DNA of 62,938 bases, filler included, from Craspedostauros australis (taxonomy: Eukaryota): assembly GCA_030167865.1 (NCBI GenBank). It is 13 parts of 13 records of this genome, joined end to end, with 100 filler letters (N's around TTAATTAATTAA, not from the genome) between each part and the next. Parts side by side here need not be neighbours in the genome. Positions count along the whole stretch, not along the records: positions 37,719 to 41,493 come from JALAGF010006582.1; 12 more parts are not named here. One strand, given 5' to 3'. The position numbers and the translations under genes are program-made. Position 1 is the first letter of the stretch; every line of letters begins with the position of its first letter. The notes beneath the pieces were generated by a model. That model saw only the letters and a list, made by a program, of their open reading frames with translations, was not told where the DNA came from and did no database searches. Positions 18,449 through 57,708 of the stretch are shown here, in pieces.

Positions 18449-19380
18449 TGTTCATACGATTGCTAATGATAATGAATGTTGTTGTTGATGATGTAAGATC
18501 AAAAATTATGATTACTTGAGCTATCTCTCTCCCTTCTGCAGTCTGCACCTCTTGTCAATCGTATTCATGCATTTCGAGATCATGTTGTTTGTGCCTTATC
18601 CCAAACCTGCGCCACTCTCTGTTAGACTTCTCGTTTTGGATGGAGGTCAGGGTTTGGATGGCGATATTCCTTTCATATGCAAATATTTTTACGATTGAAT
18701 CTTGACCGATCATTCTTCCAACTGGAGCTTTGACTCATCCGACTTCCAGTTGGAACCTTGACTCATCCGACTTCAGTTTGAGTCTTGACTAATCTGATTT
18801 CAATTTTGATTCACGACTCGTCAGTCTTGATTGACTGTTAACACGACTTGTAGGTGTGACTGGCAATGTGATTGCTTGGGTGACTTATTGATGACTAGTA
18901 TCTATTGTGCACAAGTCTAGGTCTTGTGTCACCNNNNNNNNNNNNNNNNNNNNNNNNNNNNNNNNNNNNNNNNNNNNNNNNNNGTCTGCACCTCTTGTCA
19001 ATCGTATTCATGCATTTCGAGATCATGTTGTTTGTGCCTTATCCCAAACCTGCGCCACTCTCTGTTAGACTTCTCGTTTTGGATGGAGGTCAGGGTTTGG
19101 ATGGCGATATTCCTTTCATATGCAAATATTTTTACGATTGAATCTTGACCGATCATTCTTCCAACTGGAGCTTTGACTCATCCGACTTCCAGTTGGAACC
19201 TTGACTCATCCGACTTCAGTTTGAGTCTTGACTAATCTGATTTCAATTTTGATTCACGACTCGTCAGTCTTGATTGACTGTTAACACGACTNGTAGGTGT
19301 GACTGGCAATGTGATTGCTTGGGTGACTTATTGATGACTAGTATCTATTGTGCACAAGTCTAGGTCTTGTGTCACCAATA
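18449..19380 (-). repeat. LTR of the same Ty3/gypsy family as 31275-31718 (about 490 bp; appears twice because of overlap around a gap)
   Basis: The reverse complement aligns with 31275-31740, including ~25-bp internal tandem repeats (GTCAAGACTCAAACTGAAGTCGGATGA-like) and the downstream TCAATCGT(A/C)CGCCGGCATAAGGC. 18541-18933 is duplicated at 18984-19376. Confidence 0.85.
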
Positions 19381-19494: not shown

Positions 19495-19576
19495 TGTTGG
19501 AAATCCGGGGTAACCCAGTCTCTAGTAGTAGTATCTGATTACCTATTCCTGTTGTTGCATTGTTGGAACTGTGAGT
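19495..19576 (-). repeat. 3' end of an LTR related to the copia LTR at 41203
   Basis: TGTTGGAAATCCGGGGT...TAGTAGTAG...GAACTGTGAG matches 41203-41270. Confidence 0.65.
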
Positions 19577-28152: not shown

Positions 28153-29623
28153 ATGTCTCAACGCGTGTGGAATTGCTTGCCCGAGCGCGAGGCCTGCGCA
28201 GAGGCAAGGGCCAGATTCGTGCATGCCGCTACATGGCTAGCTCAGCTTCCAATAGACGATCTTGACGATGACGACATGGAGGATCTCCGTCTGCACTTCC
28301 GCGATGTGCTTGCCCTTGGTGTGCACACCCTGCAACTACAGCATCAATACCTTCTTCCACTGGATCCTCCACGGATTCATAGCAATCGTGGTGTGACAAT
28401 TCGTCAGCTGTCAGAGAGGGATGCTCTGAAACACTTCCGGTTTCGGAAGGACCACCTGCGTTGAATCCTCGTCGCGCTTTGGCCCAAATTCAACGCTGTG
28501 TCTGGTGAGGCCGATCCCAGATCTATACAGGTCAAGAATCGTTTGGCTGTGTCCTTCGAGGTCGGTGTTCTGATCATGCTGTATCGATTGGCTCATCGAG
28601 ATCGATTGATTGACATGGAGGATNGCTTCGATATGGATGTCAACAGGCTTTCTTGTATCTGTTCCACCTTCTTTCTTTACTTCTATGAAATCGCGGCTCC
28701 ATACCTGAGTGACATTGGGCTGTTCTACCCTCGCTTTCAGCAGTANNNNNNNNNNNNNNNNNNNNNNNNNNNNNNNNNNNNNNNNNNNNNNNNNNCGTTT
28801 GGCTGTGTCCTTCGAGGTCGGTGTTCTGATCATGCTGTATCGATTGGCTCATCGAGATCGATTGATTGACATGGAGGATTGCTTCGATATGGATGTCAAC
28901 AGGCTTTCTTGTATCTGTTCCACCTTCTTTCTTTACTTCTATGAAATCGCGGCTCCATACCTGAGTGACATTGGGCTGTTCTACCCTCGCTTTCAGCAGT
29001 ATGCTGACAATGTCTGCAAGCTCACAAAACAATTGGTCAACAATGTCATCGGCTTCGTCGACGGGACGTTCTCTGCAACGTGCCGACCAACCTACAACCA
29101 AGAATTGGCGTATTCTGGACACAAGCATCTGCATGGAGTGAAGTTCCAAGGGGTTGTTGGTGCAGATGGATTGATTCTTCATTACTATGGACCCATCCTG
29201 GGTGCCCGTCATGACATGCACATGCTGCGTGAGAGTGAAGTCGAGGATCGCTTGCGCCAATTGATGCCGTTGCCTGGTCACGATCCGCTGTATCGTTTGT
29301 ATGGCGATCCGGCGTACCAAACGATAGCATACATCCTTGGTGCATTTCGCAACACCACTCGGGGTTCTTCTGAAGCTCTGTGCAACAAGGACATGTCTAG
29401 TGCACGAATCTGTGTTGAGTGGGAGTTCATGGAGATCGGCAGGAACTTCCCATTGCTGGGGGTGAAGAATCAGCTCAAGATGTATTGGAATCCGCTCACC
29501 CACATGCAGTACATTGCGGCATTTTTCACCAACCTTCGTTGCACACTCTATGGCAATGAGCAATCATCGCGATACACATCTGAAAAGCTGTCCATGGAGG
29601 AGTATATCAGCTTGATTCCATGA
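28153..29623 (+). pseudogene. PIF/Harbinger-type (DDE_Tnp_4, HARBI1/ISL2EU-like) transposase with one in-frame stop
   Basis: FRFRK, LYRLA, GFVDGT, YSGHKHLHGVKFQ, GARHD, LYGDPAY, MSSARICVEWEF; TGA at 28462-28464; 28539-28745 is duplicated after the gap. Confidence 0.88.
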
Positions 29624-29723
29624 TCCAATTGGCTGTCATTCATTTCAATAATGTGCACTTTCGATAGTGCCATACATAATCAACTGTTACTATGTCCTAG
29701 TTACATCGTGTTCGTGGCGCATG

Positions 29724-30541
29724 TGATGGCGTTGCAAATGATGGCGTCGCTGATGATATTGTCACAAATGATAGCGTCGCAAATGATGGCATCGCTGATG
29801 ATGGCGTTGCTGATGATGGCATTGCTGATGATGGCATCGCTGATGATGGCGTCGCAAATGATGGCTTCACGGATGATGGCATCGCTGATGATGGCGTTGC
29901 GGATGATGGCGTCGCTGACAATAACGTCGCAAATGATGGAGTCGCTGATGATGGCGTTGCAAATGATGGCGTTGCAATTGATGGCGTCGCAAATTATGAC
30001 GTCGCTGATGATGGCGTTGCTGATGATGGCGTCGCAAATTATGGCGTCGCAAATTATGGCGTCACTGTTGATGGCGTTGCTGATGATGGCGTCGCAAATT
30101 ATGGCGTTTCTGATGATGGCGTCGCAAATTATGGCGTCGCGGATGATGGCGTTGCGGATGATGGCGTTGCGGATGATGGCGTTGCTGATGATGGCGTCGC
30201 TGACAATAACATCGCAAATGATGGAGTCGCTGTGGCGTCGCTGATGATATCGTCACTGATGATGGCGTTGCTGATGATGGCTTCGCAAATTATGGCGTCG
30301 CGGATGATGGCGTTGCTGATGATGGCGTCGCTGATGATGACGTCGCTGATGATGACGTTGCTGATGATGGCGTTGCTGATGATGACGTTGCTGATGATGG
30401 CGTTGCTGATGATGGCGTTGCTGATGATGGCGTTGCTGATGATGGCGTTGCTGATGATGGCGTTGCTGATGATGGCGTTGCAATTGATGGCGTCACTGAT
30501 GATGGCGTTGGTGATGATGGCGTTGCAAATTATGATGATGG
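29724..30541. repeat. 15-bp minisatellite, consensus CTGATGATGGCGTTG, about 54 units
   Basis: Visible 15-bp periodicity with variant units (CAAATGATGGCGTCG, CGGATGATGGCGTTG, CAAATTATGGCGTCG); one 4-nt deletion near 30232. Confidence 0.95.
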
Positions 30542-31274: not shown

Positions 31275-34200
31275 CATGAATAATGTCACCCAAGCAATCA
31301 CATCGCCAGTCACACCTACGAGTCGTGTTAACAGTCAATCAAGACTGACGAGTCGTGAATCAAAATTCAAGTCGGATTAGTCAAGACTCAAACTGAAGTC
31401 AGATGAGTCAAGACTCCAACTGGAAGTCTGATTAGTCAAGACTTAATCGTATGGAAATATTTGCATATGAGAAGACACTTCTTCAACCATTGACCTCCAA
31501 CCAAAATGAGAAACCTAATAGAGAAACCTAATAGAGAATGGATCGGGTTGGGAGAAGTGCAAACCGAATCATCTCGAAATGCATGAATACAGTCGACCAA
31601 GAGGTGCAGACAGCAGAAGAGAGAGAGATAGCTCAAGTAATCATAATTTGGTCTTACATCCACAACAACAACCTCAATCGTATCAAGTACAACATCATTC
31701 GAAAAAAAAAATACAACATCAATCGTACGCCGGCATAAGGCACAGTGATATCACTCCTTGCGGTTGAGCATCATCCAAGTCCAAGCAAGATGAGCGAAGT
31801 CAAGCCAGGACAGGAGCCTGTCCTCTATTGGGAGACTCCAAAAGAGAAGAAGTACCCTCGAAGCATGTACCTCAAGATGGATGTCTACGAAGATCCATCG
31901 GATGAGAGCAATATCAACACAGTGGAGACATCAGTCCTCAAGTTCAACGATGGGAGCGCAGAAGAATGGCTGAGGTTCCGCCGTGAATTCGATACTCTCA
32001 TGGCAGCAAAGCGTATGACCACTGCAGCACAGAAGATGGTCCACCTCAACAACTTGTTGATGGGGGATGCGCAGAATCGATTCGCGACAGCAGTGCAAGC
32101 AGTCAGTGGCAATACCACCTCATCAGCCAGCAGCAAGCTCCAAGAAGGGCTCAATGCTGTGGGTGCTCCATTCTTTGGACACCCAACAAGTGCTTGGCGT
32201 CGCCAGCGCAATTACATGCGCCAACATGCATCATTCAAGCATGGCGAACTGGCAAGCTTCCGTGCTCGGCTATTGGAACTAAATCAGTACCTTCCATTCA
32301 TGCCCAAGCCAGGAGCTAATATTACACCAACGGCATTCCCAGACTTTGAGCTGGTCGAGATCTTGGACCGAGCAAGTCCAGAACAATACAGCCGTGCCTT
32401 ACTCCAAAGTGGGTATCAGGTGTATGAGCACTCTTTCGAGGAGCTCTATCGTCGCCTCCTCGATGTGGCAAATAGTTGTCGCCCCCTCAAAAAGGGCAAT
32501 GGTGCCAAGAAAGGCAAGCGTAATGCTAGCGACGAAGGCAGCCGCGGAAGGCGCGGTAAACTCCGAAATAACGACAATAAACGCCAAAAAGGCAGTCCTG
32601 CAAAATCCATTCCCAAATGTGGGAGATGCGGCAGAATCGGACATGAAACCAATGAGTGCTGGAATGATCCGAAGAACGCAAGCCTCCGCCCAAGCGGCTG
32701 GCGCGTTCCGTCCGAAGACAAAAAGGCTTCCAACAAGAGTGATGAGAACCTCAATGTGGTCTTGACCCAAGAGCTCTTCCATCAACTCGTCCAATCCTTG
32801 CCAAGCAAGAAGAATCCAAAGAAGAAGCGTCGCATCTCCGATGTAGTTGATGAAAATGCCAACTACCTGCGTCAATTGAACCAGGACAATAATGATAACC
32901 GCTCTAGTAGCAGCGCATCTACAGAATACCTAACGCCTACACACAAATGTGCAGCAAATTGCTATAGTCTGGCTAGCAGAAAGGCCAAGCGCAGTAAACA
33001 TGACCATATGTCCACCGAAATTATTGGTGAAACGGTTGATAGCAAAGGCGAATTAGTGCAAATGCGTGTCCTGCTAGACTCTGGCACATCAAGCTGCCTG
33101 ATACTAAGAAAGTATGCTCCTTGCACACTGAGACACAAAAGTGGACTCATGAAGTGGAAAACGATGGGCGGCAACTTCTATACGTCCAGCCTGGCCACGA
33201 TCAATCTAGTGCTGCCTGAATTCCACTTGCATAAGTCGATCCGTTGGACCATGCACGTTGATGAAACAACGCAAGTTGAGAATGCCCAATACGATATGAT
33301 CGTGGGTACAGACTTGATGCATGAGCTCGGAATAGACTTGTCATTCTCAGATAACACAATGACATGGGATAATAGCACGATCCCAATGAAGAATCGTGGA
33401 GTGCTGACAGATAAGAAAGCACTCGACATTGCATACCATATAGCGATGCAGTCTACCCTGCTCAACAAAGCAGAAGATAGGCAGAAGCGAATCATGGATG
33501 CTGACTACAGCGAGATAGAGCTGGATAAATACGTGTCCAAGCTGAGCCATCTCAGCGAAGCGCAACAACAAAAGCTGCTTGCGACACTCCAACGTACACC
33601 GAAGACCTTCAAAGGAGGCCTGGGTACATTGAAGATCAGTCCAGTACATCTGGAACTCAAATCAAATGCAAAGCCATTCCATGGCAAAGCCTTTCCNNNN
33701 NNNNNNNNNNNNNNNNNNNNNNNNNNNNNNNNNNNNNNNNNNNNNNNNNNNATCGGAGTGTGGGAGAAGTTCTCCAATAGTGACTGGGCTGCACCCAGCT
33801 TCATCCAGCCAAAGAAGACTGGAGATGTCCGAGTACTAACTGACTTCCGGGAGCTTAACAAGCACCTGAAACGGCGACCATATCCGTTGCCGAAGATCCA
33901 GGACATGCTTCAGAAGCTGGAACAGTTCAAATACGCAACAGCATTCGACCTGTCAATGGGGTACTACCACATTCCATTAGATACCCCCAGCCAGAATTTG
34001 TGCACCACAGTATTACCGTGGGGAAAGTACAGATATAAAAAGCTGCCAATGGGTATATCCACAGCCCCTGACATATTCCAGCGCATCATGAATGAGCTGC
34101 TTGGAGACCTAGAATTCGTACTGGTCTACCTCGATGACATACTCGTCCTGTCGGACACAAATGACAGTGACGACGATCATCTGACAAAATGTCATGCTGT

Positions 34201-34756
34201 GCTCGCGCGTCTCCAAGATGCTGGGTTCGCTGTGAACCTGCGCAAGTCATTCTTCATGATGAAGGAGCTGGACTACTTGGGTTACAAACTGACGCAACGC
34301 GGCCTCGAGCCCCAGCCAAAGAAAGTGGAAGCGATACAGCGAGTGCTGCCGCCGTCGACAAAACGACAGCTGAGACGTTTCTTAGGCATGGTCAACTACT
34401 ACCGCGATATGTGGAAGCGCAGGAGCCATGTGTTGGCCCCNNNNNNNNNNCTTACCTCCCTCGCCGCCAAGAACATGAAATGGCACTGGGGCAAGACCCA
34501 ACAGAAAGCCTTCGATGAAGCCAAACAAATGGTAATGCGAGAGGCAGCGCTAGCATACCCAGATTTTAATAAAGAGTTCCATGTGCACGCCGATGCGAGC
34601 GACTACCAACTTGGTGGCGTGATAGCACAGGAAGGAAGGCCACTGGCATTCTATACTCGTAAACTTAATGCTGCTCAAACGCGGTACACCACAGGAGAGA
34701 AGGAGCTTCTCAGCATAGTCGAAACGCTGAAAGCATTCAACAATATTCTCCTTGGT
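31275..34756 (+). mobile_element. Ty3/gypsy LTR retrotransposon: partial 5' LTR (to 31718) and single gag-pol ORF
   Basis: The LTR ends in CAACA at 31718; domain order gag-PR-RT-RNase H. Confidence 0.95.
31790..34756 (+). CDS. Gypsy Gag-Pol polyprotein (3'-partial)
   Basis: ATG 31790; knuckle CGRCGRIGHETNEC; PR LLDSGTS; RT DFRELNK, LPMG, YLDD; RNase H DASDYQLGGV...EKELLSIV. Confidence 0.93.
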
Positions 34757-34856: not shown

Positions 34857-37618
34857 CATCCAGCTGTACTGGTCTGGGGTGTCAGCGGTACAGGAAAGTC
34901 CGCTCTCGTTGATCACTTCCTGGAGACATGCTGCATTTGCGGCAAGGGCTCCAACCAGAAGCAAACGAAGACTGAACAAGCGGGTGCAGGCGATGCAGCA
35001 CCCTCCTGCTCCTGCTGCTACGTCCTGCGTGGAAAGTATGACGAGTACACAGGAAAGAGTGACCCATTCTCGGCCATCGCCCAGGCCATTCAAGACTTCA
35101 CAACCCAACTCAAGAACGGACCCAAGGAAGAACTCGATCGNATGCGTGAATGCGNGCGAGCAGCATTCCCCAACGGCGGGCTTCGTCCNNTGGTGAAAGT
35201 GGTGCCATCTCTCTCCATCTTGACATCCAAGTCAGCCCGAGGCGGCGCTTCTGTCATGAGCCAATCCGTCAGCCAGCGCGATAACTACAGCACCAGCATG
35301 AACGGTAGCACCGCCAACGGCGATGGATCTTCACCAGCGGCGGGTGGAGCCATGACAGAAAAGATGTGGAACCAGCTCCAGTACATCTTCNNNNNNNNNN
35401 NNNNNNNNNNNNNNNNNNNNNNNNNNNNNNNNNNNNNNNNNNNNNNNNGGAACGACCCATCTACATGTTCCTCGACGATCTGCAGTGGTCTGCCGAGGTG
35501 GGCCTCAGCCTCATCGCCCGGTTGGTAGCTGATTCCGGGTTGCAAAACTTCCTTCTGCTTGGTGCCATCCGCCAGGACACCAACCCGCATACTGACGAAC
35601 CACTGGACCTCACGCCAGACCACCCGCTGGCACGGTGCCTCGTCACGCCGTTGTCAGCAGAAGATACTGCCAATGACAGCAACCAAAAGGCAGAAGGCCC
35701 TGATGATAGATCAACCACGTCCGCAACCACATCATTGTCTCAGGCTGGTAAGCGCCGCCCTCCGCGAACCCTCCAGCAGATCACGATCACCAACCTCACG
35801 CTGGATGACATGACTGCATGGCTCTCGAGCATGCTGGACTGCAACGACATCGAAGATCTATCCGAGAAGCTCCACTCCAAGACAGATGGAAACGTCTTCT
35901 TCACCCTGCAAGCTCTCGAAGAGCTGGAGAGAAAGGACATTCTCGCCTTCAACTCCATCTCTCACCGATGGGAGTGGAGTCTTTCCAACCCAGGGGATGA
36001 CGACAACAGCAACGCCGGTAGCGCCCAACTACCCATCAGCGATAACATCATCGGCATCATCGAATCCAAGCTGCGAGACCTTCCCATGCAGCTGCAGCAG
36101 GTGTTGTCCATTGCGGCCTACATCCGATCGATGTTCGACATCTCGGTGCTGCATCGGGTGCTCGAAAGCGAGCGCAAGCACGTGGATGGAGAGATCGATT
36201 CCATGGCCCGCATCTCCTCCAAGCAAGAACTCTCCAGTATGCTGGACCATGCGGTTCTAGAGCGTCTCATCTCAAACCCCATCGGTGGTACCAAGTACCA
36301 CTTCGCGCACGATCGCATCCAGCAGGCCGCACAATGCATGATCCCAGCCGGCGAGGCTCGTGACAAGTTGCGCGTGCGGATCGGTCACTGCTTGCTGCAG
36401 ATGTACCGACGTATGCAGACTCGTCTTCAAGAGGACGAGGAAGAAGAGCATGACAACGATGCGAATCATGGGACTGACCACGAGCCCAAGAAGCAACGCA
36501 AAAATCACCCACAAGGCAAGGTCGCAATGCCCTCCCAGTCCACAGACTCAGTAACGTCAACCGAAACGTTCACTTCGGCTGTTACTACGTCAGAAGTAGA
36601 TGATGGCCTGTTGTTCGTGGCTGCGGATCACTTGAACACCGTGCAGACCAAAGATCACATGTTCTCCGTCATCATGAATCTGGAGGTTGGCGAGAAGGCC
36701 ACAGAGATGGCAGCGCTCGAAGCAGCCGCCGGGTACTTGCGAATGGCGCATGAAGCATTGCAGCGAGTGAGAACTGGCTCATCTCCCAACACCTCCTCCA
36801 AGACCAAAGGATCGACCGGTACCCAAGCCGCTGCCAGCCCATCGATCTGGGACAGTGATGAGCACTACGACATCTGCCTGCGGGTCTATCGGGCACGCGC
36901 CGACGTCGAGTTGTCGATCGGCAACTACGAAGTCGGCTACAAGCTGTGCGACGAGGTGCTGGAGAGAGCCAGATCACCGGACGACAAGGCGCTCACCCAC
37001 TTCTCCATGGCCAGAGCCTTGACCAGGCAGGATCGTCACAGAGACTGCATGGAGATGGAGCTGCGTCTGCTTCAATCGTTGAAAGCGTTCCCCAGCCGAT
37101 GGTACTCGCTGCACACTATGATGACCAGGATGAAGGTTAAGCACTTCCTAAAGAACAACACCAACGAAAAGATCCTCGCAAGATCATGGATGACGGATAA
37201 GAAGAAGCTCACTGCCATGATGATTCGTGCAGACTTCAACATGTGCTCCAATGCCATCAACAAAGTGGACTTTAACATCTTGAACACGTGCAAGATGCTG
37301 TGCACATCCATCAAGCACGGCATCTGCGCAGAGATGGCAGGCGCCTTCGGTACATATGGACTTCGACTATGTGGCACGAAAGAGCAAGCCCTGGCCCAGC
37401 GTTGTATGAAGATCGGCGACCTGATCCTCGAGCAGGTCGATGGAAGACATCTGGAAGGCATGTTCCGATTGACTTCCGCGAGCTACGTCAACGGGTTCAG
37501 GTCCACTTTCGAAGATGCCCTGCGGGATCACAAGAAAGGGTATCACCGCTCGATGGAGGTCGGAGAATTTGGCATTGGTATCCTCAATTACCAAAACTGC
37601 GTCATGCAAGGACTTATG
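34857..37618 (+). CDS. Partial STAND-class ATPase, paralog of 12318-16631
   Basis: VLVWGVSGTGKS (from 34857), GKYDE..DPFSAI, FLDDLQWS, TDGNVFF, YHFAHDRIQQAA, VAADHLN; many motifs are collinear with the 1437-aa protein. Confidence 0.88.
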
Positions 37619-37718: not shown

Positions 37719-40700
37719 TGTTAAGTAAGAGTTTCTCTGCAGAACGATTCTCTCCTGCGTTGTCACATCTGACATTTTGAACCGTTACTCGCTGATTCGC
37801 TTGGAGCCATTGGAACAACAAAAGCATCTTCGACCCCACGTCGCTTTTCTCTGTGATGAAGTAACTCCAGCAGTAGTCACTGTAATCGTCGATCACAAGA
37901 AGCCAGTATTTGCCCNNNNNNNNNNNNNNNNNNNNNNNNNNNNNNNNNNNNNNNNNNNNNNNNNNNNNNNNNNNNNNNNNNNNNNNNNNNNNNNNNNNNN
38001 NNNNNNNNNNNNNNNNNNNNNNNNNNNNNNNNNNNNNNNNNNNNNNNNNNNNNNNNCCTGTCACGTTCCAGCCGTACCTCCCTGCTGTTCGAGAGATGGT
38101 GTACGCGTCAACGTGGCCTAACTTTTTATGGATTGTGTTGATGTCGACAGGTGCGCCGGTTGACACGCCAACATGAGCTTGGTCGTCCGTCTTGGCGTTG
38201 CTCACCATGGTCACTCCGCAGACGAAACCGCTATGAGTCGCCATGATGCGGTCAAAGGTGATGCGGGCCTTGCCTTTCTTCAGGGTCATGATGACGCCGA
38301 GGTTGCTGATGNNNNNNNNNNNNNNNNNNNNNNNNNNNNNNNNNNNNNNNNNNNNNNNNNNNNNNNNNNNNNNNNNNNNNNNNNNNNNNNNNNNNNNNNN
38401 NNNNNNNNNNNNNNNNNNNNNNNNNNNNNNNNNNNNNNNNNNNNNNNNNNNNNNNNNNNNNNNNNNNNNNNNNGATCGGAGACGCGAATGTTGGTCATAC
38501 CTTCGTCGCTGTTGGTGAGATGGCACGATGCGCCCGAATCGCCCAACCAGGTGTTGGTCTCGTAGTTATCCGGTGCGACGGAGGAGCGCCTTGCGGTGAC
38601 ATTGTCGGTGTTGCCGACCACCATTGCCACCTCGTGTTGTTCTGCGCGTTCGGAGTAGATTGGCAGCACCCAGTGCTCCGGACTTGGGTTTCGGACTCCG
38701 CCGTCACCTGGATGGTAGGTCCAAACGATGGAGTTCGCGGCATGGTGTGTCATGCGCGAAATCAGATCGCTGGGAAAGGGGTCGAAGCGACGGGATTCCA
38801 AGCTGTTGTTGATGTTGCATGGGTTGCGGCACACTCCCAGTGTGGTGTGCATTCTGATCTCGTGCAGTTTGAAATACACCGTGCGTGGCTCGATCAGCGG
38901 AGTGCGGTCCCCATTGTGGGTGGCCACAGCGTCGTAGCACAGTAAGGCGAGCTCACTTTGCACATCATCCGCTTTGAGCACGTTGCTGAGCGATGCTCGA
39001 ACCGCATTGCGGAGGGAGCCAGCTCTCTCAAGTCTGGTGCGTCGCTCCGCGCGCTCTTCNNNNNNNNNNNNNNNNNNNNNNNNNNNNNNNTTGTGGAGCT
39101 GGATGAAGAAAGGAACTTGGGGGCATTCCACGCACCATGCGTAGAGTGGTCCTCGCTTGAGGCACAGAGGGCACCAGGCCGTGTTGGTGACGAGTCCTGT
39201 CGAGTTCCCGATCATGCGGTCCACACGAGAGAGCTCTGGGGCGAAGTTGAAGATAGGGCGACGTGCCGCTTCTCCTCGGTTGGCATCGCCCATGTCATCA
39301 TCCACGTCCTCGGTGTCGGTGGCCCCTTCGTTGGTGAGGCTTGCGTCGTAGTAGGATTCTTGTCCTTGGTTGGAGTTGCTCNNNNNNNNNNNNNNNNNNN
39401 NNNNNNNNNNNNNNNNNNNNNNNNNNNNNNNGAGCACGTTGCTGAGCGATGCTCGAACCGCATTGCGGAGGGAGCCAGCTCTCTCAAGTCTGGTGCGTCG
39501 CTCCGCGCGCTCTTCATCGTTGGTTGGCACATTGCCTCGCGGCTCATTGTGGAGCTGGATGAAGAAAGGAACTTGGGGGCATTCCACGCACCATGCGTAG
39601 AGTGGTCCTCGCTTGAGGCACAGAGGGCACCAGGCCGTGTTGGTGNNNNNNNNNNNNNNNNNNNNNNNNNNNNNNNNNNNNNNNNNNNNNNNNNNNNNNN
39701 NNNNNNNNNNNNNNNNNNNNNNNNNNNNNNNNNNNNNNNNNNNNNNNNNNNNNNNNNNNNNNNNNNNNNNNNNNNNNNNNNNNNNNNNNNNNNNNNNNNN
39801 NNNNNNNNNGGATTCTTGTCCTTGGTTGGAGTTGCTCATCTTGTTGTTGACGTTGTGTGGTCTCAAGGAAACAATGGGAGATGTGTCAGTCTGTTCGACG
39901 ATGGATGCAAAGGCCACGTCCTCCATTACCTTGGAGTCAGCTTGGTAGTTGCTGTCGTTGTCGCGTGTTTTCGCTTCGCCTGTGTTCACAGACGAGTTGG
40001 TCACATTTTCCAATTCGTTCGTGTTTCCCGAGGTGGGCACACAAATTAATTCGTCTGTCATCACAAGAGCTACGTCGTTATTTCCTTCCATCCCATCAGT
40101 TGCCACATTAGCCGAGTCTGCCTCTTTCATGGCTGCCTTCAGCTTGAAGCACTGTAGGATCTTGTGTCCCTTCTTACCGCAGTACTTACACTCCCCGTTG
40201 AACTTGGGCTTACTGTTGTTGTCTCCTTGGCCACTCTTCTTGTTCTTGCCGTTGCCTTTCTTGGGGGCAGAGCGGCAGTCTGCCTTCTTGTGGCCGTAGG
40301 CTCCACAGTTGCGACAGTGACCTTTGAAGCCTCCTACTGCAGCGAATGCAGTCTCTTCCCTGTCATTGTTGCTCTCACGTCTGTTGCTCCCAAGCTTGAG
40401 GTGTCGGCCATCGTAGGTGGCGCTGACAGCCTCGCGGATGTCTTCGAGGGTCATGGTATTTTCCATACCGTCGAATTTGAGCTCCAAGAGCTTGATGTCC
40501 GTCTCGTATTCCCTTCCGAGGGCGTTGAGTACGAGCATGTGGTACTGTTGCATATCCATGTTGATACCAGTACTACCAAGGCGATTACGCAGCACTTCCA
40601 TCTCGGTCAGGAACGTGTCTGGGTGCTCGCCTTTCTTCAACCGCATCCCGTTGAGTTGAGCCAACAACTTTGCCTTGATAGGCGCGGTACGTTGCTCATA

Positions 40701-41493
40701 GATGCGTTCAAGGGCCTTCCACGCCTTGCGTGGGTCTCCACTCTTAGTGGGCCCGCCCTTGGTTCCCACCACAGCCATGAAGGCGACATTGCCTTCCGTA
40801 GTTTCATGGTTGATCACCATGGTCAGTTCTTCAAACGCGCACTTAGCCAGCCCATTCTTGTATACCTCCTTCTCCTCAGCAGTCATCGAGGCTATCTTCT
40901 TCGCGATAGACTCACCCTCTTCGATCTTCACATCGGAAATGAGGGCGCTGGGGCCGAAGGGAGCTGGCTTCACCTCCACCTTGTCTAGATCCATGAGGTA
41001 CAGGTCCTCAAGGCCCCTGCCCGCGGCGCGAGCTAGGAACTTGATGCTCCAACCCGTCCAGCTGGAACGCTTGCCGTCGAAGATGACAACGCGGTCACTT
41101 TTGCGGAGATAGGAGCTCATGGTGGTGTGGTGGTGGTGATGTTTGTTGCTGTGTTGGTGGGTGATGGAAACGTTGGATTTCAATCGTAATCGTTTCGAAA
41201 CGTGTTGNAAATCCNGGGTTATAGTAGTAGACTAATCTGTTATCAGTCTGTACCGTTTTAGAACTGTGAGCACAACATGCTCATCTCCTTTCGATTCCAA
41301 TTCGCAACAAACATGATCCGCAGTAGCCACCCGAGGTTACACCCTTTAGCTTGGCTCCTTTCGTCTGCATCTTCATCTTGCTTTCATCGTGGTTCATCGT
41401 TTGCTTGGCTGAGGATTGGAGAGCACCTACATTCGTCAAGATCATACTCGTAGACCTGTAGGTACCTCTCCTTCGGTCTCCTGTCACCTCACT
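37719..41493 (-). mobile_element. Ty1/copia element: 5' LTR end (41203-41493), palindromic PBS position, gag with two CCHC knuckles, accessory domain, PR, partial IN
   Basis: ATG 41120 (MSSYLRK); CRNCGAYGHKKADC and CKYCGKKGHKILQC; WLGDSGASCH; IHKKLGH; VRCDNAGEN. Confidence 0.92.
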
Positions 41494-41593
41494 NNNNNNN
41501 NNNNNNNNNNNNNNNNNNNNNNNNNNNNNNNNNNNNNTTAATTAATTAANNNNNNNNNNNNNNNNNNNNNNNNNNNNNNNNNNNNNNNNNNNN

Positions 41594-44500
41594 ATGGAGG
41601 TGCAAGAGGATTGCACCAAGCAATGAGAGCAAAGAAGAGATGGATCAAGAGAGCATCTTGATCATCTCATTCCCCACACTCGCTCATCAACAATCAATAG
41701 CAATAACAGTAACAGAAACACTTTGAGAAAGAGTGTTGACTACTACCGATTCTCCGTGCGCGGAGCCTTCCAACACGTTTATAAACGTTAGCACCAGGGA
41801 AGCCCTGTGCAAGGAGAGATCGAAGAGCGAGAGACGCTGCATGAGCGACGAGCGAGAGACGAGCTAGCTTACCCTCTCACGCGCGTGATCGAGGACAAGG
41901 CGAGAAGCGAAACGAGCGCTGAATGAGCGAAGAAACCGAGGAGACTGCATTCCCTCTCACACCAGTGATCGAGGACGAGACCGAGGGAGACGAGGACGAG
42001 ACTCTGAACCTCACGCGAGAAGGAGCGGGTGCGCCCATCCAACAACCAAGAGCTCAGCAAGGAGCTATCATCGAGACAGAAGCAGAGCAAGCTGCACGAA
42101 GAGCCGGCGCAGAGACGCGGCAGAGAGACCAGCCAAGACCGACATTGGCATCAACAGAGACATCCACATCGACTCCATCACAGCGAGTGTTCAAAGTGGA
42201 AGCGTACAAGACAGAAGTACAAGAGACAGAAGGCAGGGGTAGCGCGTCAGAGAGAGACAGCGGCATCGATCCCCTCGCGTCGAACGACAACGAAGAGTCA
42301 GAGAGAGAAGAAGAGAGAGAAGAGAGCCAATCGACAGGCGGCACACAAGACACAAGCAAGCAGGCAACAACGAGAAAGAAGATGACAAAGGACACATACA
42401 AGAGGCGCAAGGCCCCACTCTTCAGCGGAAAGAAGGAAGACTACAATGCGTGGGAATCGCAAGCCAAGGCGTACGCGCGTACGCAGCGATACAAGGACAT
42501 CATGATGGGAGAGAAGCCCATCCCGACGAAAGGAGACATCGAGAAAGAGAGCGACGAAGAGAAGAGGGAGGCCCTCAAAGAGACGCGCGAACTGGCGCTG
42601 GACTGCTTCAGCGATCTGATCCTGATGATGGATGCAGAGCAAGGAACTGGAAAGCAGGCGANNNNNNNNNNNNNNNNNNNNNNNNNNNNNNNNNNNNNNN
42701 NNNNNNNNNNNAGACTGCATTCCCTCTCACACCAGTGATCGAGGACGAGACCGAGGGAGACGAGGACGAGACTCCGAACCTCACGCGAGAAGGAGTGGGT
42801 GCGCCCATCCAACAACCAAGAGCTCAGCAAGGAGCCATCATCGAAACGGAAGCAGAGCAAGCTGCACGAAGAGCCGGCGCAGAGACGCGGCAGAGAGACC
42901 AGCCGAGACCGACATCGGCATCAACAGGACAACCCACATCGACTCCATCACAGCGAGTGTTCAAAGTGGAAGCGTACGAGACAGAAGTACAGAGGACGGA
43001 AACAGAAGGCAGGGGTAGCGCGTCAGAGAGAGACAGCGACATCGATCCCCTCGCATCCAACGACAACGAGGAGTCAGAGAGAGAGAAGAAGAGAGAGAAG
43101 AGAGCCAATCGACAGGCAGCACACGAGACACGAGCAAACAGACAACAACGAGAAAGAAGATGACGAAGGACACGTTCAAGAGGCGCAAGGCCCCACTCTT
43201 CAGCGGAAAGAAGGAAGACTACAACGCGTGGGAATCGCAGGCAAAGGCGTACGCGCGTACGCAGCGATTCAAGGCCATCATGATGGGAGAGAAGCCCATC
43301 CCGACGAAAGAAGACATCGAGAGAGAGAGTGATGAAGAGAAGAGGGAGGCCCTCGAAGAGACACGCGAACTGGCGCTGGACTGCTTCAGCGATCTGATCC
43401 TGATGATGGATGCAGAGCAAGGAACTGGAAAGCAGGCGATCCAGCTGATCAACCAATGCTGCGACGAGCAGAACCCCGAGGGGAACCCAGCGGCAGCATG
43501 GAAGATGCTGAAGGAGAAATACCAGCCGACCGACGCATCCACGGTGCTGCGGCTGAAGCGCCAATTCAACACGGAACGCATGGCGAGGGATACGGATCCC
43601 GACATCTACGTCACACGGCTTGAGCTGCTCCGCACTCGCCTCCAAGATGTGAAATACGAGATCAGCGAGAGAGAGCTGATCATGCAAGTACTCAGCAGCC
43701 TCAGCAAGGACTACGACGACGAAGTGAGCAACTTCGAGTACCAACTGCAGATGGGTCCAGAGAAGGTGACGATCGAAGCCATCCGAAACGTCCTGAACTA
43801 CAGATACGCCAAACTCCAAGGTGGAAAGGCGTACGTGGACGACTTCGCAGACACGGGCAGCAAGCGCGACGACGCGGCGATGGCTGCGACAGGCGGATTC
43901 AANNNNNNNNNNNNNNNNNNNNNNNNNNNNNNNNNNNNNNNNNNNNNNNNNNNNNNNNNNNNNNNNNNNNNNNNNNNNNNNNNNNNNNNNNNNNNNNNNN
44001 NNNNNNNNNNNNNNNNNNNNNNNNNNNNNNNNNNNNNNNNNNNNNNNNNNCGCGGCAATCAAGGCAACCGCGGCAACAGAGGAAGAGGTCGTGGCAGCGG
44101 CTTCAGTGGGAAGTGCCATTACTGTGGCATCCCAGGACACCGAGAAGCCGACTGCAGAAAGAAAAAGTTCAACGAAAAGAGAAAGCAGGAAGAGCAAGGA
44201 AGCACGGCGCAAGACGGCAACGACGACAGATTCGAGATGGTGNNNNNNNNNNNNNNNNNNNNNNNNNNNNNNNNNNNNNNNNNNNNNNNNNNGTGAGCAA
44301 CTTCGAATACCAACTGCAGATGGGTCCAGAGAAGGTGACGATCGAAGCCATCCGAAACGTGCTGAACTACCGATACTCCAAGCTCCAAGGCGGAAAGGCG
44401 TATGTGGACGACTTCGCAGACACAGGCAGCAAGCGCGACGACGCGGCGATGGCTGCGACAGGCGGATTCAAAGGCAACTGCCACAACTGCGGAAAGTACG

Positions 44501-50116: not shown

Positions 50117-53100
50117 TGACCTCATCTCCTACGTTGAGCTCGCCGATATCATCGAACGGCAACAAGAGCACAGCGACGACCCTGACGCCAAGTGGGAGTT
50201 TGACTCCATCATCGGACACGAGGGTCCCCTCTCATCTTCCTCTCCCTCCTACAAGGGATCGAGCTTCAACGTCATCGTCAAATGGGGAGACGGCTCCACC
50301 TCCAACGAACCCCTCTCCATCATGATTCAGGATGATCCTGTCTCTTGCGCTGCCTACGGCCGCCGCCACGAGCTGCTCGACGAGCCTGGCTGGAAGCGCC
50401 TCAAGCGCCTCGCCATCCGCACCCATCGTCTCGAGCGCCAGGTCCACAAATCAAAGACCTTCAACCATGCTCCCACCTTCCAGTTCGGCGTCCAAGTCCC
50501 CCGCAACCACAAAGAAGCGATGCGACTCGACGACAAGAACGGCAACACTCTCTGGGCCGATGCCGAGAAGAAGGAGATGGACCAACTCTTCAGGTACCAC
50601 ACCTTCAAGTCTCTCAGCAAAGGCGCCCCTGTCCCCTCCGGCTTCCAGAAGATCCGCCTCCAATGGGTCTACGCTGTGAAGCACGACCTCCGCCACAAGG
50701 CGCGGTGCGTCGCTGGTGGACATCTCACCGACCCCTGCAAGGATGCATCCTACGCAGGTGTGGTCAGCCTCCGCTCCCTCCGACTCTCCCTTCTCGCCGG
50801 TGAACTCAACGGCATACCAACCTGGGTTGGAGACATCGGCAATGCGTATCTTGAGGCCTTCACTCAAGAACGCATCTGCTTCATCGCTGGTGACGAATTC
50901 GGTGACTTTGCTGGTCATACCATGCAGATAGTCAAGGCACTCTACGGCCTGCGCACATCGGGCGCCCGATTCCATGAGGCCCTCGCCGACACCCTTCGCG
51001 ACATGGGCTTCCTCCAATGCCGCTCCGATCCCGACGTCTGGATGCGTGACGCCACCTCCCATTGGGAGTACGTCTGCGTCTACGTCGATGATCTCACCGC
51101 GACGATGGCCGACCCCAAGGCCTTCTTCGACATCCTCTCNNNNNNNNNNNNNNNNNNNNNNNNNNNNNNNNNNNNNNNNNNNNNNNNNNTTCCGGCTTCC
51201 AGAAGATCCGCCTCCAATGGGTCTACGCTGTGAAGCACGACCTCCGCCACAAGGCGCGCTGCGTCGCTGGTGGCCATCTCACCGACCCCTGCAAGGATGC
51301 ATCCTATGCAGGTGTGGTCAGTCTTCGCTCTCTCCGCCTCTCCCTTCTCGCCGGTGAACTCAACGGCATTCCAACATGGGTTGGAGACATCGGCAATGCG
51401 TATCTTGAGGCCTTCACTCAAGAACGCATCNNNNNNNNNNNNNNNNNNNNNNNNNNNNNNNNNNNNNNNNNNNNNNNNNNCCATACCTTCAAGTCTCTTG
51501 GCAAAGGCGCCCCAGTCCCCTCCGGCTTCCAGAAGATCCGCCTCCAATGGGTCTATGCTGTGAAACACGACCTCCGCCACAAGGCGCGCTGCGTTGCTGG
51601 TGGTCATCTCACCGACCCCTGCAAGGATGCATCCTATGCAGGTGTGGTCAGTCTTCGCTCTCTCCGCCTCTCCCTCCTCGCCGGCGAACTCAANGGCATT
51701 CCAACATGGGTTGGAGACATCGGCAATGCGTATCTTGAGGCCTTCACTCAAGAACGCATCTGCTTCATCGCTGGCGACGAATTCAGTGACTTCGCTGGTC
51801 ATACCATGCAGATAGTCAAGGCACTCTACGGCCTGCGCACATCGGGCGCCCGATTCCATGAGGCTCTCGCCAACACCCTTCGCGACATGGGTTTCCTCCA
51901 GTGCCGCTCCGATCCTGACGTCTGGATGCGTGACGCCAACTCCCATTGGGAGTACGTCTGCGTCTACGTTGATGATCTCACCGCGACGATGGCCGACCCC
52001 AAGGCCTTCTTCGANANCCTCTCTTCGAAGTACGGGTACCAGCTCAAGGGAGTTGGTCCTATCAAGTACCATCTCGGTGCTGACTTCGGCCGTGATCCCG
52101 ACGGCACTCTCAAGCTCTCCCCGCAATCATACATCAAGCGGATGATGGAGAACTACGAGCGCATGTTCGGCGAGCTTCCACGCAAGATCAGCTGCCCCCT
52201 CGACAAGGCCGACAGCCCGGAGCTCGACACCTCTTCCGAACTTAGCGAAACCGACAAACGCAAGTTCATGTCACTCATCGGTGCACTCCAGTGGTGTATC
52301 TCCCTCGGGCGGTTCGACATCTCTGTCGCCGTCATGACGTTGGCACGCTTCCGCTCAGCGCCCCGCCAAGGTCATTTGGATCGCGCCAAGCGCATCTACG
52401 GATATCTTCGCAAGCACCCTGATGCTGCCATCCGCTTCCGCACCTGCGTTCCCCGCTTCGATCTTCACTACGAGGTTCCCAACCATGACTGGATCTACTC
52501 CGTCTACGGGAAGACCTCTGAGGAGATTCCGGACGACATCCCCGAGCCGAAAGGCAAACCAGTCCGAACCACCACGTTCGTCGACGCCAACCTTCTTCAC
52601 TGCCAAGTCACTGGCAGATCCGCTACCGGTGCTCTCCATCTGGTAAACCAGACCCCCATCGAATGGTTCTCCAAGCGCCAAGGCACGGTTGAGACCGCCA
52701 CCTATGGGTCCGAGTTCGATGCTGCCCGTCAAGCTACAGAGCAGATCATCTCCCTTCGCCTCGCTCTCCGCGAGATGGGCATTCCAATCGACGGCCCCAG
52801 CTGGATGCTGGGTGACAATCAGTCCGTCATCACCTCCTCCACGGTCCCCAAGAGCATGCTCTCCAAGNNNNNNNNNNNNNNNNNNNNNNNNNNNNNNNNN
52901 NNNNNNNNNNNNNNNNNNNNNNNNNNNNNNNNNNNNNNNNNNGGCACGCAGAACGTCGCCGACGTGATGACGAAGTTCCTCCCGTGGGCTGTCTTCTGGC
53001 CCCTCGTGAAGCCCATCCTCTTCTGGAAAGGGCACACCGAGTCCTCTTCCCCGACCTACAAGACCTGANNNNNNNNNNNNNNNNNNNNNNNNNNNNNNNN

Positions 53101-54729: not shown

Positions 54730-57708
54730 GCGTCGCGACATGAACAACGGATGGTGTCCGTTGTGCCTCAAGCGCGGGCCTCTCTACGCATGGTGCGTGG
54801 ACTGCCCGAACATACCCTTCTTCATCCAGCTCGCCAACGAGCCAAGAGGTGCCGTGCCTAGCAACGAAGGCGAAAGGATGGTGCGCAGAGAGGTGCTAGA
54901 TGAGACGAGCGGATTATTATTCGTGACCGCCCGATGCTCGTTGAGCAACGTCCTTTCACCAAACGACGTCCGGTCCGAACTCTCCCTCATCTGCATCGAC
55001 GCAGTNNNNNNNNNNNNNNNNNNNNNNNNNNNNNNNNNNNNNNNNNNNNNNNNNNNNNNNNNNNNNNNNNNNNNNNNNNNNNNNNNNNNNNNNNNNNNCT
55101 GTGTTAATGCATACCGGATGAACGGAATGCTAGAGAGCGTTCGCCTCCAGCCAATCCAACAGGCGCTCATCGGAGCCATGAGCAGCATCGCATCGGAGCA
55201 GCTGATGTGGATGCACCACCCGAGCATCAACGGCATCCGTGAATATCGCACCCACTGCGAGTTAACACTGTACAGCAATGCCAACGGCCACGAAATGGCA
55301 ATGGTGATCGGCGACTTGGACAACGTCGATACGCGCAAGTCGACCATCGCACCCGACCGCCNNNNNNNNNNNNNNNNNNNNNNNNNNNNNNNNNNNNNNN
55401 NNNNNNNNNNNNNNNNNNNNNNNNNNNNNNNNNNNNNNNNNNNNNNNNNNNNNNNNNNNNNNNNNNNNNNNNNNNNNNNNNNNNNNNNNNNNNNNNNNNN
55501 NNNNNNNNNNNNNNNNNNNNNNNNNNNNNNNNNNNNNNNNNNNNNNNNNNNNNNNNNNNCCTGAGCTATGGGTCAACCTCTTGAGCATCAACAAGGCTCT
55601 CGAAAACGGTTTCGATATTAGCAACCGAGGTGTGATCATGTCCCTGGAGAAGAAGGGACAACGCATTCGCTTCGATCGCATCATGGCGACGCACAGCGGA
55701 TTTGTGAGTGGCGTGAACATGATAGCCGCTCCTGCACACGACGATCAAGCCAACGTCGGAGTGTCGACGAAGAAACCGATCGACATCAACAAAATCCATA
55801 AAATGTTAGGCCATGTTGACACTTACACCATCTCTCGCACTGCGGGACGATACGGATGGAATGTCACAGGAAGCTGAACGCTTGTGTGGATTGCGCGATC
55901 GGCAAATCGCGACAACGGGGATTGACGAAGACTCTACAGCCGAGAGCAAAGAAAGTTGGAGAGCGACTGTTCATGGACACATCGAGTGTTCAGACGTACA
56001 GTTTCGGCCGAGGCAAATACTGGCTTCTGATCATCGACGATTACAGTGATTACTGCTGGAGTTTCTTTGTGAGAGAAAAGAGTGACGTCGGATCCAAGAT
56101 GGTGGGGTTATTACGGTGGCTTCAGGCGAATCAGGAAGTGAGCGTGAAAAATGTGAGGTGCGACAACGCGGGAGAAAATTACTCAACGGAGAAGCAACTA
56201 CTTAACGCTGGGTTCGGACCGACTTTCGAGTACACCGCCGCGGCCACTCCCCAACAAAATGGTCGCGTGGAGCGAAAATTCGCGGTACTATACGGAAAGG
56301 TGAGGGCCATGCTAAACCAGACGCATCTGCCGAAGAGCTCTCGAAGTAAGCTGTGGGCAGAAGCAGCTCGCACAGCCACGCAATTGGAGAACATCATCGG
56401 AACAAAGACAAGAGAACCAGCTTGCATCCTATTCAACGAGCAGATCCCCACCTACGTAGATGGACTGCGTACATTCGGGGAAATAGGGATGGTCCACATC
56501 GGAGGACGAACGATCAAAGCGAAGCTGGATAGCAGATCCAAACCGGCTATGTTCGTCGGATACGGCCAGTCGCATGCTAGTGGTGTGTACCGGATGCTGA
56601 ATCTAACTACAACGAGAATCCTAATCACAAGAGACGTGACATGGATGAACCAGTCATATGGGCAGTTCAAGGGTATTGCGAACGCCAACAGGTCAGTACT
56701 GATAGACCTGGAAGATGACGACTCTACATCGGAGATACCTTCCCCGAATAATAGAGTAACTTGGGAGCGACGTGAGGATACCATCAAGGGAATGGAGACC
56801 GACGACGCAGATCAGAGCAGAGGAGCCGGAATTGATGTAGATACAGAAGACGCTGCTCAAGGGCAAGATGACTTGCTCCCCACCCAAGGGGATGACGATT
56901 CGTACGATGATAACGACGATGAATCCGGAAGGGACAACGAGAAGAGACCACACGATCAAGACGAGGTCCCAGTCGCAACACCTGTTAGAAGCATGCCAAG
57001 GATGCTGAAGGCTCTCGCAGGGTTCAACAATTCACCCATTCCAATGGAGGAACGAGACCTAGGATCCAGTGGAGAGTCAGAATCAGATGAAGGAGAGAAT
57101 GAGACTACTCCAACAACGACTACCACACCATTGGCAACAGGAGGACAGAATTTCCACACGAATTGGTCAACATTCAACAGAGACGTCGCAGGTATGATGA
57201 TAGATACTACTCATGGTAAGATGAGACTCGATGACTTCATCACTGCGAGCCAAGGATTGGATCAACAATCACTCGAAGAGGGGTACGAGCAAGCTAATGT
57301 CGCAATGATGCTAGACCCAACCACCTTCGAAGAATGCTGGGATCATGCGGATCCCGAGAAGAGAGTGAAGTGGCGGGAGGCCATCAACAAGGAGTTCAAC
57401 GATATGGCCAGAAGAGAAGTATGGGAGAAGATCAAGATGAACCAAATGCCGAAGGATCGGCGATGCGTGAAGACCAAATGGGTGTTCAAGGAGAAGAGGA
57501 ANNNNNNNNNNNNNNNNNNNCTCGTCGCATGCGGATACTCGCAGATTGCAGGGGTTGACTTCTCAGCACACCACGCACCAGTGATACACGACGCAACCTA
57601 CCGCGTCATGCTCACAATGAAGACGTTGTTACACTTGGACAGCATCATTATCGACTTTGAGACAGCATTCTTACATGGAGAGCTCGAGGAGGAGATCTAC
57701 ATGCGATG
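54730..57708 (+). mobile_element. Ty1/copia internal fragment related to 37719-41493: accessory domain, PR end, IN, RT start
   Basis: WCPLCLKRGPLYAWC; IHKMLGH...CVDC (frameshift near 55875); RCDNAGEN, QQNGRVER, RDVTW, LVACGYSQ, ETAFLHG. Confidence 0.92.

What the first reader, a model, noticed from the sequence alone, without database searches (positions are those of the whole stretch)
41191..41202. Second copia family with the palindromic PBS, showing a compensatory centre
Seen: on the minus strand the LTR ends ...CAACA (41203) and is followed by CGTTTCGAAACG, about 70 nt before the gag ATG. The Gag proteins of the two families are very divergent, so the shared palindrome is unlikely to be passive sequence similarity. 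A related LTR end at 19495 is followed by unrelated sequence, consistent with the palindrome belonging to the internal region rather than the LTR. Inference: selection acts on self-complementarity.
Basis: partly seen in the sequence, partly recalled or inferred. Interest (0 to 1): 0.7.

Follow-up and report, generated by a model that had tools for sequence, protein, structure and literature searches.

The report
Palindrome replaces copia tRNA primer site
A group of diatom-type copia jumping genes has, exactly where such elements normally bind a host tRNA to start copying themselves, a short sequence that pairs with a second copy of itself, which suggests (untested) that the two packaged RNA copies prime each other.

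Summary
Confirmed. CGTTTCGAAACG (41191-41202) starts at the first base after a copia 5' LTR, 70 nt before gag. In this genome it follows 53 of 59 LTR-leader junctions and 0 of 91 other LTR ends examined. The trait is clade-wide: 42 of 47 evaluable metagenome relatives carry a perfect palindrome starting at the LTR end (background 16 of 2904). Among 43 non-redundant elements there are 16 different palindromes, and the central bases covary too, which argues for a two-molecule duplex rather than a hairpin. The site sits on a covarying U5-leader stem, often with a second short palindrome behind it. No tRNA or Tf1-type LTR match was found for this family.

Best reading (0.55, inferred): the partner RNA pairs here, is cut, and primes reverse transcription. 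Main rival (0.25): a dimer signal with another primer. Against strict need: one subfamily spread with a mismatched palindrome. The commonest variant resembles a half-tRNA-Ile site, a possible origin (marginal).

Closest published case: the fungal GalEa hairpin site. I recall, unverified, a Repbase note of this for diatom copias. The scan found this before in another diatom genome (e1-7528241).

The parts
41203..41493 (-). 3' portion of the 5' LTR (cut by the contig end at 41493), ending CAACA
   Evidence: 87% and 94% identical to the two LTRs of full-length copy L063 and co-terminal with them
41205..41214 (-). U5 arm of the predicted U5-leader stem (GGATTTNCAA)
   Evidence: Sequence; complementary to 41175-41183; stem predicted for family copy L063
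41191..41202 (-). P1: perfect 12-nt palindrome CGTTTCGAAACG at the primer-binding-site position, 0 nt after the LTR
   Evidence: intact at 53 of 59 family junctions
41181..41186 (-). P2: second short self-complementary stretch (CGATTG, needs G-U; CAATTG in some copies); overlaps the leader arm
   Evidence: Sequence; clade-wide enrichment 21 of 43 against 29 of 387 control windows. Weak in this copy.
41175..41183 (-). Leader arm of the U5-leader stem (TTGAAATCC)
41167..41174 (-). AACGTTTC, complementary to the 3' half of P1; family-specific, not clade-wide
   Evidence: 3 of 43 elements have such a match of 7 nt or more
38286..41120 (-). gag-protease reading frame with tandem CCHC knuckles, interrupted by assembly gaps; pol continues to the contig end near 37719
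41594..41775 (+). End of the 5' LTR of the other (AT-centre) family, on the next contig; U5 arm at 41758-41771
41776..41787 (+). P1 of the other family, CGTTTATAAACG
41797..41810 (+). Leader arm of that family's U5-leader stem; different sequence, same predicted pairing
   Evidence: (duplex -24.7 kcal/mol, best of its row)
43019..44293 (+). Gag frame of the other family
   Evidence: PF14223, E 3e-13; 23% identity to the finding's Gag
19495..19576 (-). 3' or solo LTR end of a sister CG-group subfamily, followed by unrelated DNA

Best explanation
P1 is the primer-binding site of a tRNA-independent copia clade, and the primer is the same sequence on the second packaged genomic RNA. SHOWN: P1 starts at base +1 after the 5' LTR only; it is kept self-complementary to its centre while sequence and length change; it lies between the arms of a covarying U5-leader pairing. 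INFERRED: in the particle two genomic RNAs form a 10-14 bp P1:P1 duplex while each keeps its own U5-leader stem; one strand is cut at the 3' edge of P1; its new 3'-OH then sits against the partner's LTR end and is extended into minus-strand strong-stop DNA. The geometry is that of Tf1 self-priming (RNase H cuts an RNA duplex), but with the primer supplied in trans. The cutting enzyme is a guess by analogy. Only one cut per dimer should be productive, because one intact template must carry P1 for the second strand transfer. P2 would be an accessory dimer contact.
For: Position: 53 of 59 CG-group junctions intact, the rest mostly CpG decay; 58 of 79 in AT family A (hand count); none of the 91 non-junction LTR ends among the first 100 of 559 listed has the palindrome (cross), and the flanks printed are unrelated DNA. 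Clade: 42 of 47 evaluable relatives against 16 of 2904 other RACA sites; in several contigs a polypurine tract plus TGT start lies 256-591 nt upstream, marking the LTR independently. Covariation: 16 distinct P1 among 43 elements, at least 20 changes on the tree, all six pair positions vary and stay paired in 35 12-mers; column shuffles give 3.7 on average, at most 11. The left edge stays at the LTR end while length runs 10, 12, 14 (8 in one locus), as expected if a 3' end there defines the LTR end. Two molecules, not a hairpin: 12 of 21 compensated swaps are in the four bases that would be a hairpin loop; predicted hairpin -0.5 against duplex -13.3 kcal/mol. U5-leader duplex: own -13.0 against cross-family -7.5; in the top 3 of its row for 29 of 42. 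No other primer: best tRNA run 5 nt for this family among 51 unique tRNA sequences; longest LTR complement 8 nt, mean 4.7 against 4.6 control, in 32 elements. Tf1 chemistry: PMC7175516 passages.
Against: No experiment and no RNA data. A subfamily with CGA(T/A)TATAAACG forms a clade (5 places on 4 contigs), and two of its copies diverged with pN/pS 0.33 over 398 codons, so it replicated with an A-A mismatch three bases from the supposed primer end; other pairs in that subfamily are short and give ratios of 0.4-1.0. None of the 5 places shows the mirrored or compensated form that inheritance of the primer would predict. The tRNA set is incomplete (63 scored of 1301 candidates; 50 loci scanned; no initiator Met, Ile-UAU, His or Phe seen). 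The commonest P1 pairs 8 nt with tRNA-Ile(IAU) nt 33-40 (13 of 43) and the bases behind P1 best match the adjoining nt 27-34. Cofolding puts P1 fully intermolecular in only 22 of 43. Cutting a genomic RNA behind its own primer site sacrifices it, a cost Tf1 does not pay. The palindrome criterion was used to locate the site in relatives, although the 5 misses are accounted for.
Confidence: 0.55

Rival explanations
1. P1 is a dimerisation/packaging signal like a retroviral DIS, and priming uses something else, most plausibly a 5' half of tRNA-Ile(IAU) bound in two parts (P1 bases 2-7 and the bases just behind P1), or a primer not yet identified.
For: A palindrome on top of a stem is the DIS design, and two palindromes act together in MuLV (PMC5874298 passages) and Ty1 (PMC6844567 passages). 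MMTV has a palindrome within its PBS that serves as a dimer contact. Of 10,512 tRNA registers, the best match to the 8 nt behind P1 is tRNA-Ile(IAU) 34-27 (4.65 against 4.26-4.59 for the best of 30 shuffled sets), contiguous with the P1 match. That match is higher in elements whose P1 also fits (5.6 against 4.2, naive p 0.005). Half-tRNA-Ile priming is proposed for plant Bianca elements (PMC6317226 passages). Tolerance of the mismatched subfamily fits a dimer signal better.
Against: For the finding's family tRNA-Ile ranks 36 of 40 halves (-2.1 against -15.9 kcal/mol for P1:P1), yet this group has 559 LTR ends. 30 of 43 elements lack the full 6-nt match at the tRNA end. Elements are related, so the p value is inflated. 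No family with an intact half-tRNA-Ile site was found in this genome (1 match against 5 control). A pure dimer signal has no reason to start at base +1 and leaves no primer site. Other hosts' tRNAs were not available.
Confidence: 0.25
2. One RNA folds P1 back on itself (4-bp stem, 4-nt loop), is cut behind it, and primes in cis.
For: Gives the same fixed register at the LTR end; monomer folds often show this hairpin on top of the U5-leader stem.
Against: Loop bases would be free, but pairs 5/8 and 6/7 are complementary in 35 of 35 12-mers and carry 12 of 21 compensated swaps. The hairpin alone is about -0.5 kcal/mol.
Confidence: 0.07
3. Symmetry is mostly mechanical: if one DNA strand of the site is copied from the primer and the other from the template, any mutation is mirrored and repair drives the site back to a palindrome with little selection. 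This is compatible with the best explanation and differs only in why the symmetry is so perfect.
For: Fast symmetric turnover (at least 20 changes). One decayed copy has a doubly changed core (C6614). The compensated form of the local mismatch exists in two relatives (L296, L303). Mirror-image single mutants (GT and AC centres) both occur.
Against: The mismatched subfamily kept the same side in 5 of 5 places. Most single-sided variants are CpG decay after insertion, and the AAACA group shares one upstream flank, so it is not independent evidence.
Confidence: 0.08
4. A DNA-level feature: an insertion-site preference, a transcription-factor site, or passive similarity.
For: Ten of 12 bases are shared between the two window families, and CG...CG ends are common (32 of 35).
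Against: Absent after 91 of 91 non-junction LTR ends. Sixteen sequences of three lengths do not fit one protein site. Neighbouring leader sequence is not conserved between families while P1 pairing is.
Confidence: 0.03

Closest known systems
[quoted passage not shown] 2017, PMC5445492; read section 10, passages, and supplementary file 4)
   Same: Copia element with no tRNA PBS; a palindrome starts at the 5' LTR end; two main variants differ by a compensated swap; the authors suspect it replaces the PBS. The 9 nt directly behind P1 in AT family A here (ATAGATCAG, variant ATAGATTAG) equal or nearly equal their CHSeq2.
   Different: CHSeq1 is 9 nt and needs the LTR's last A; P1 is 10-14 nt and complete without it. 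A downstream complement (their hairpin) is not a clade feature here (3 of 43). Protein motifs are not fungal GalEa: DSGA, RARLVA, YVDD, RPDI and tandem CCHC here against DTG, KSRLVI, QTDD, CQPEA, CCCH.
Tf1/Tf2 self-priming (Tf1/sushi gypsy group; also predicted for plant TAR copia) (PMC7175516 and PMC6317226, passages)
   Same: No tRNA; the primer is element RNA paired to the PBS and released by a cut; an RNA structure around U5 is needed (title of a cited paper).
   Different: Tf1's primer is the first 11 nt of the same transcript, so the LTR holds the PBS complement; none here. The primer here would be the partner's P1.
Retroviral DIS and Ty1 PAL1/PAL2 dimer palindromes; MMTV PBS-pal (PMC5874298, PMC6844567, passages)
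   Same: Palindrome exposed on a stem, intermolecular extended duplex, often two palindromes.
   Different: There the palindromes exist beside or within a working tRNA PBS; here the palindrome occupies the PBS position and no tRNA site remains.
CoDi6 copia elements of diatoms (Maumus et al. 2009, PMC2806351, passages; supplement not readable)
   Same: Copia domain order, TG...CA LTRs, tandem CCHC fingers as in CoDi6.2-6.5; a named RT relative is from the diatom Cylindrotheca (51%).
   Different: The main text says nothing on the PBS or palindromes. I had no CoDi reference sequences, so subgroup placement is untested.
Repbase entries for Thalassiosira pseudonana copia families (about 2003; recalled, not seen)
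   Same: I recall them stating that no tRNA PBS is present and that a 12-bp palindrome at the start of the internal region serves for self-priming.
   Different: Could not be checked: Repbase is not available and the 2004 genome paper is not held. As recalled it was an annotation without covariation analysis or experiment.

Membership tests
Ty1/copia | gag-PR-IN-RT-RH order between two LTRs | tested here: met
   Full-length family copy L063: frames in that order, LTR end repeated 6803 nt downstream; PF14223 in the window; RT relatives all PF07727
Ty1/copia | Target-site duplication | tested here: inconclusive
   LTR start of L063 not resolved
CoDi6 (6.2-6.5) | Tandem CCHC fingers in Gag | tested here: met
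   criterion
CoDi6 (6.2-6.5) | RT tree placement with CoDi6 references | not testable with these tools
   No reference sequences; supplement not readable
Fungal GalEa with CHS | Palindrome at the LTR end in place of a PBS | tested here: met
Fungal GalEa with CHS | CHSeq2 complementary to CHSeq1 downstream (hairpin) | tested here: not met
   7 nt or more in 3 of 43 against 4 of 215 controls; the finding's family is one of the three
Fungal GalEa with CHS | GalEa protein signatures (DTG, KSRLVI, QTDD, CQPEA, CCCH) | tested here: not met
Tf1-type self-priming | PBS complement at the transcript start inside the LTR | tested here: not met
   0 of 32 elements with 9 nt or more in up to 750 nt upstream; some LTRs are longer than the stretch searched
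Tf1-type self-priming | RNase H cuts an RNA:RNA duplex to make the primer | not testable with these tools
   Needs biochemistry
tRNA-primed copia (whole tRNA) | PBS begins TGG and pairs with a tRNA 3' end | tested here: not met
   All 43 sites begin CG or TA; best run 5-6 nt among 51 tRNAs
Half-tRNA-primed copia (Bianca, Osser type) | Contiguous pairing of about 12 nt or more with an anticodon arm (threshold from my own knowledge) | tested here: not met
   Finding's family 4-5 nt; AT-centre elements 8 nt plus a separated tail; tRNA set incomplete
Retroviral-type dimer initiation site | Palindrome on a stem that drives RNA dimer formation | tested here: inconclusive
   Predicted dimer gain -12.6 kcal/mol on average, P1 fully intermolecular in 22 of 43; no experiment

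The most novel reading that the evidence does not exclude
A fourth way to prime LTR reverse transcription, after whole tRNA, half tRNA and Tf1-type: one genomic RNA is cut and primes its partner, so dimerisation and priming are one event. It may have arisen from a half-tRNA-Ile site that captured a mirror copy of its own 5' end, after which the sequence drifted freely; the fungal GalEa site may have a related origin or logic.
Probability: 0.4. Interest if true: 0.75.

Novelty: new variant of a known kind. Interest (0 to 1): 0.52.

Why it matters
Donnart et al. left open how copia elements with a palindrome in place of a PBS start reverse transcription ('no previously described models fit'). 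This clade supplies what their data lacked: many independent compensated changes reaching the centre, which favour a two-molecule duplex over a hairpin, and a fixed register that predicts the cut site to the base. That makes the question testable with short RNAs. If true, these elements need no host tRNA and would escape control by tRNA fragments. The score is held down because the feature has a published fungal analogue, was probably annotated in Repbase for diatoms (recalled only), and the mechanism is inferred.

Tried and rejected
Target-site preference: rejected. Tf1-type LTR complement: none. Whole-tRNA or contiguous half-tRNA site: none for this family. An intact half-tRNA-Ile PBS family in this genome: 1 match against 5 control; that locus shows no recognisable leader. 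CHSeq2-type hairpin as a clade feature: not found. The AAACA variants as proof that the terminal pair is dispensable: discounted, since six copies share one upstream flank and include the intact form. Viral contigs: centres random, treated as chance and not examined for copia genes. Rfam: 0 matches over 40900-42100. RNA evidence: no RNA holder listed. The Pfam Gag search returned mostly the same families in the 70 of 150 hits examined, so it did not show where the clade ends. P2 caveat: the column-shuffle control also breaks register, so it overstates covariation; the better evidence is that 12 of 24 elements with a poor tRNA-Ile match still have P2. Rows dropped: of 75 metagenome loci, 23 had no Gag hit and 5 too little upstream; of the 47 left, 5 failed (2 begin inside the site, 1 begins downstream of it, 1 is CpG-decayed, 1 shows no LTR end); 47 elements were reduced to 43 by leader similarity. 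Literature: 9 searches found no paper in this library describing the diatom palindrome; most subscription papers and Repbase are not covered, and the Maumus supplement, which lists structural features, could not be read.

Full report
Context. The window is a string of small contigs joined by 100-nt linkers. The finding lies on contig 37719-41493; the 'first family' lies on the next contig, so the two elements are not neighbours in the genome. The host looks like a diatom. This is an inference from a plastid-leader-like protein in L060 (motif recognised from memory) and an RT relative named from Cylindrotheca.

Observation. CAACA ends at 41203, CGTTTCGAAACG follows at once, and the gag ATG is at 41120. 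The upstream DNA is LTR. The other family has CGTTTATAAACG at 41776-41787, and the Gags are 23% identical; RT-RH of the CG family and of AT family A are 54% identical. Palindromes of this size are common in the window (26 by hand count), so position carries the signal.

Within the genome. LTR end plus arms with a free centre matches 132 times (control 0); the 100 listed have AT, CG or TA centres only, against 17 of 80 self-complementary in chance matches. The TA copy belongs to a third, distant and degenerate copia family. Searches anchored outside the site avoid circularity: 53 of 59 CG-group junctions are intact and 6 of the 8 changes are CpG decay; 58 of 79 are intact in AT family A. The CG group has 559 LTR ends. 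Of the first 100 listed, 9 are leader junctions and none of the other 91 has the palindrome. Of the 43 CG hits listed, 41 are, one more has the leader and one runs into a gap. In L063 and L064 the 3' LTR is followed by unrelated DNA.

Across the clade. An alignment of 30 relatives fetched 75 metagenome loci. Forty-seven could be evaluated and 42 have a perfect palindrome of 8 nt or more starting right after RACA upstream of gag; the background rate is 16 of 2904. Of the 5 misses, two contigs begin inside the site, one begins downstream, one is CpG-decayed and one shows no LTR end. With five local families, 43 non-redundant elements carry 16 palindromes of 10, 12 or 14 nt, needing at least 20 changes on the pol/gag tree (deep nodes are weakly supported). 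In 21 independent pairs, 12 differ; all 21 swaps between equal-length sites are compensated and 12 fall in the central four bases.

Surrounding structure. U5 pairs with the leader better within an element than between elements (-13.0 against -7.5 kcal/mol), and folds mostly put P1 at the top of that stem. A second palindrome of 6 nt or more is centred 3-7 nt behind P1 in 21 of 43 elements against 29 of 387 control windows, with 13 different hexamers. It is weak in the finding's copy.

Primer candidates. No site begins TGG. Among 51 tRNA sequences (an incomplete set) the best run for this family is 5 nt. No LTR holds a Tf1-type complement. One lead remains: the commonest P1 pairs 8 nt with tRNA-Ile(IAU) nt 33-40, and the 8 nt behind P1 match nt 27-34 of the same tRNA better than any of 10,512 registers. 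Removing six bases from such a site would give a half-tRNA-Ile PBS of the type proposed for Bianca. The signal is marginal: it loses its lead over shuffles without inosine, the elements are related, and for the finding's family tRNA-Ile ranks 36 of 40. I read it as a possible origin, with some chance that it still works in AT-centre elements. An earlier scan note's title named half-tRNA-Ile before I ran this test.

Mechanism. Central covariation argues for a duplex between two molecules. A left edge fixed at base +1 while length varies argues that a 3' end there starts DNA synthesis. Together with the absence of another primer this gives trans self-priming: P1:P1 duplex, a cut at the 3' edge of one P1, and extension into U5. 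The cut and the enzyme are inferred from Tf1. A dimer signal with another primer is the main rival.

Against. A subfamily with CGA(T/A)TATAAACG is a clade of 5 places on 4 contigs; its best-covered pair shows pN/pS 0.33, so a mismatch near the supposed primer end was carried through replication, possibly helped by an added flanking A-U pair or by intact partners. It was never mirrored. Cofolding supports the full intermolecular duplex in only 22 of 43. There are no RNA data.

Known or new. The elements are copia and CoDi6-like but are not fungal GalEa. Donnart et al. described a palindrome replacing the PBS in fungal GalEa and found no fitting model; their CHSeq2 equals the 9 nt behind P1 in one local family, which I cannot explain. 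Nine library searches found no description for diatoms, but I recall Repbase entries that state it, which I could not check, and the Maumus supplement was not readable. Papers seen: PMC5445492 (section 10, passages, supplementary file 4); PMC2806351, PMC6844567, PMC6317226, PMC7175516, PMC5874298, PMC2774666, PMC3601003, PMC6934838 (passages only). The scan noted the same feature in another diatom genome and similar ones in gypsy and microsporidian elements; these are unchecked AI notes and not counted as support.

Verdict. Real, clade-wide and kept by compensated change. New variant of a known kind, mechanism inferred; interest 0.52.

Noticed in passing
L067 and family A junctions: The 9 nt directly behind P1 (ATAGATCAG, variant ATAGATTAG) equal or nearly equal CHSeq2 of fungal GalEa elements, although P1 here is not complementary to them; both fungal motifs vary at the base that would face the inosine of tRNA-Ile.
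   Followed up: partly
G000 C5120, C5187, C5391, C6560 (L252-L254, L257): Subfamily with a shared unpaired change in P1; the compensated form occurs in metagenome relatives L296 and L303.
   Followed up: yes
L398 (G000 C6614): Decayed copy whose P1 core shows a double, compensated change.
   Followed up: partly
G000: 559 LTR ends against 59 leader junctions in the CG group suggests many solo LTRs or fragments.
   Followed up: no
window 18541-19283, 42300-43377, 5376-6333 and others: Near-identical tandem duplications on both sides of 50-N gaps look like assembly artefacts; copy counts in this genome include such duplicates.
   Followed up: no
window 12321-16652 (-): 1444-aa frame with AAA_16 and TPR domains; a weaker AAA_16 hit at 35309-37618.
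   Followed up: no
window 31739-34756 (+): Gypsy-type RT and RNase H; its primer site was not examined.
   Followed up: no
window 298-4324 and 50553-53065 (+): Copia fragments of more distant lineages (RT 20-30% to the clade); 55560-57703 (+) is closer (36-39%). No 5' ends were located.
   Followed up: no
window 22516-24921 (-) and 57809-59836 (-): Weak endonuclease (EEP) and RVT_1 hits, possibly non-LTR retrotransposon pieces.
   Followed up: no
window 29607-30533 and 9371-10432: A 15-nt tandem array, and a set of 181-195 nt spaced repeats with long inverted arms.
   Followed up: no
P0124, P0133, P0201-P0204: Proteins of this copia clade are filed under bacterial names in public databases, probably eukaryotic contigs binned into bacterial genomes.
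   Followed up: no
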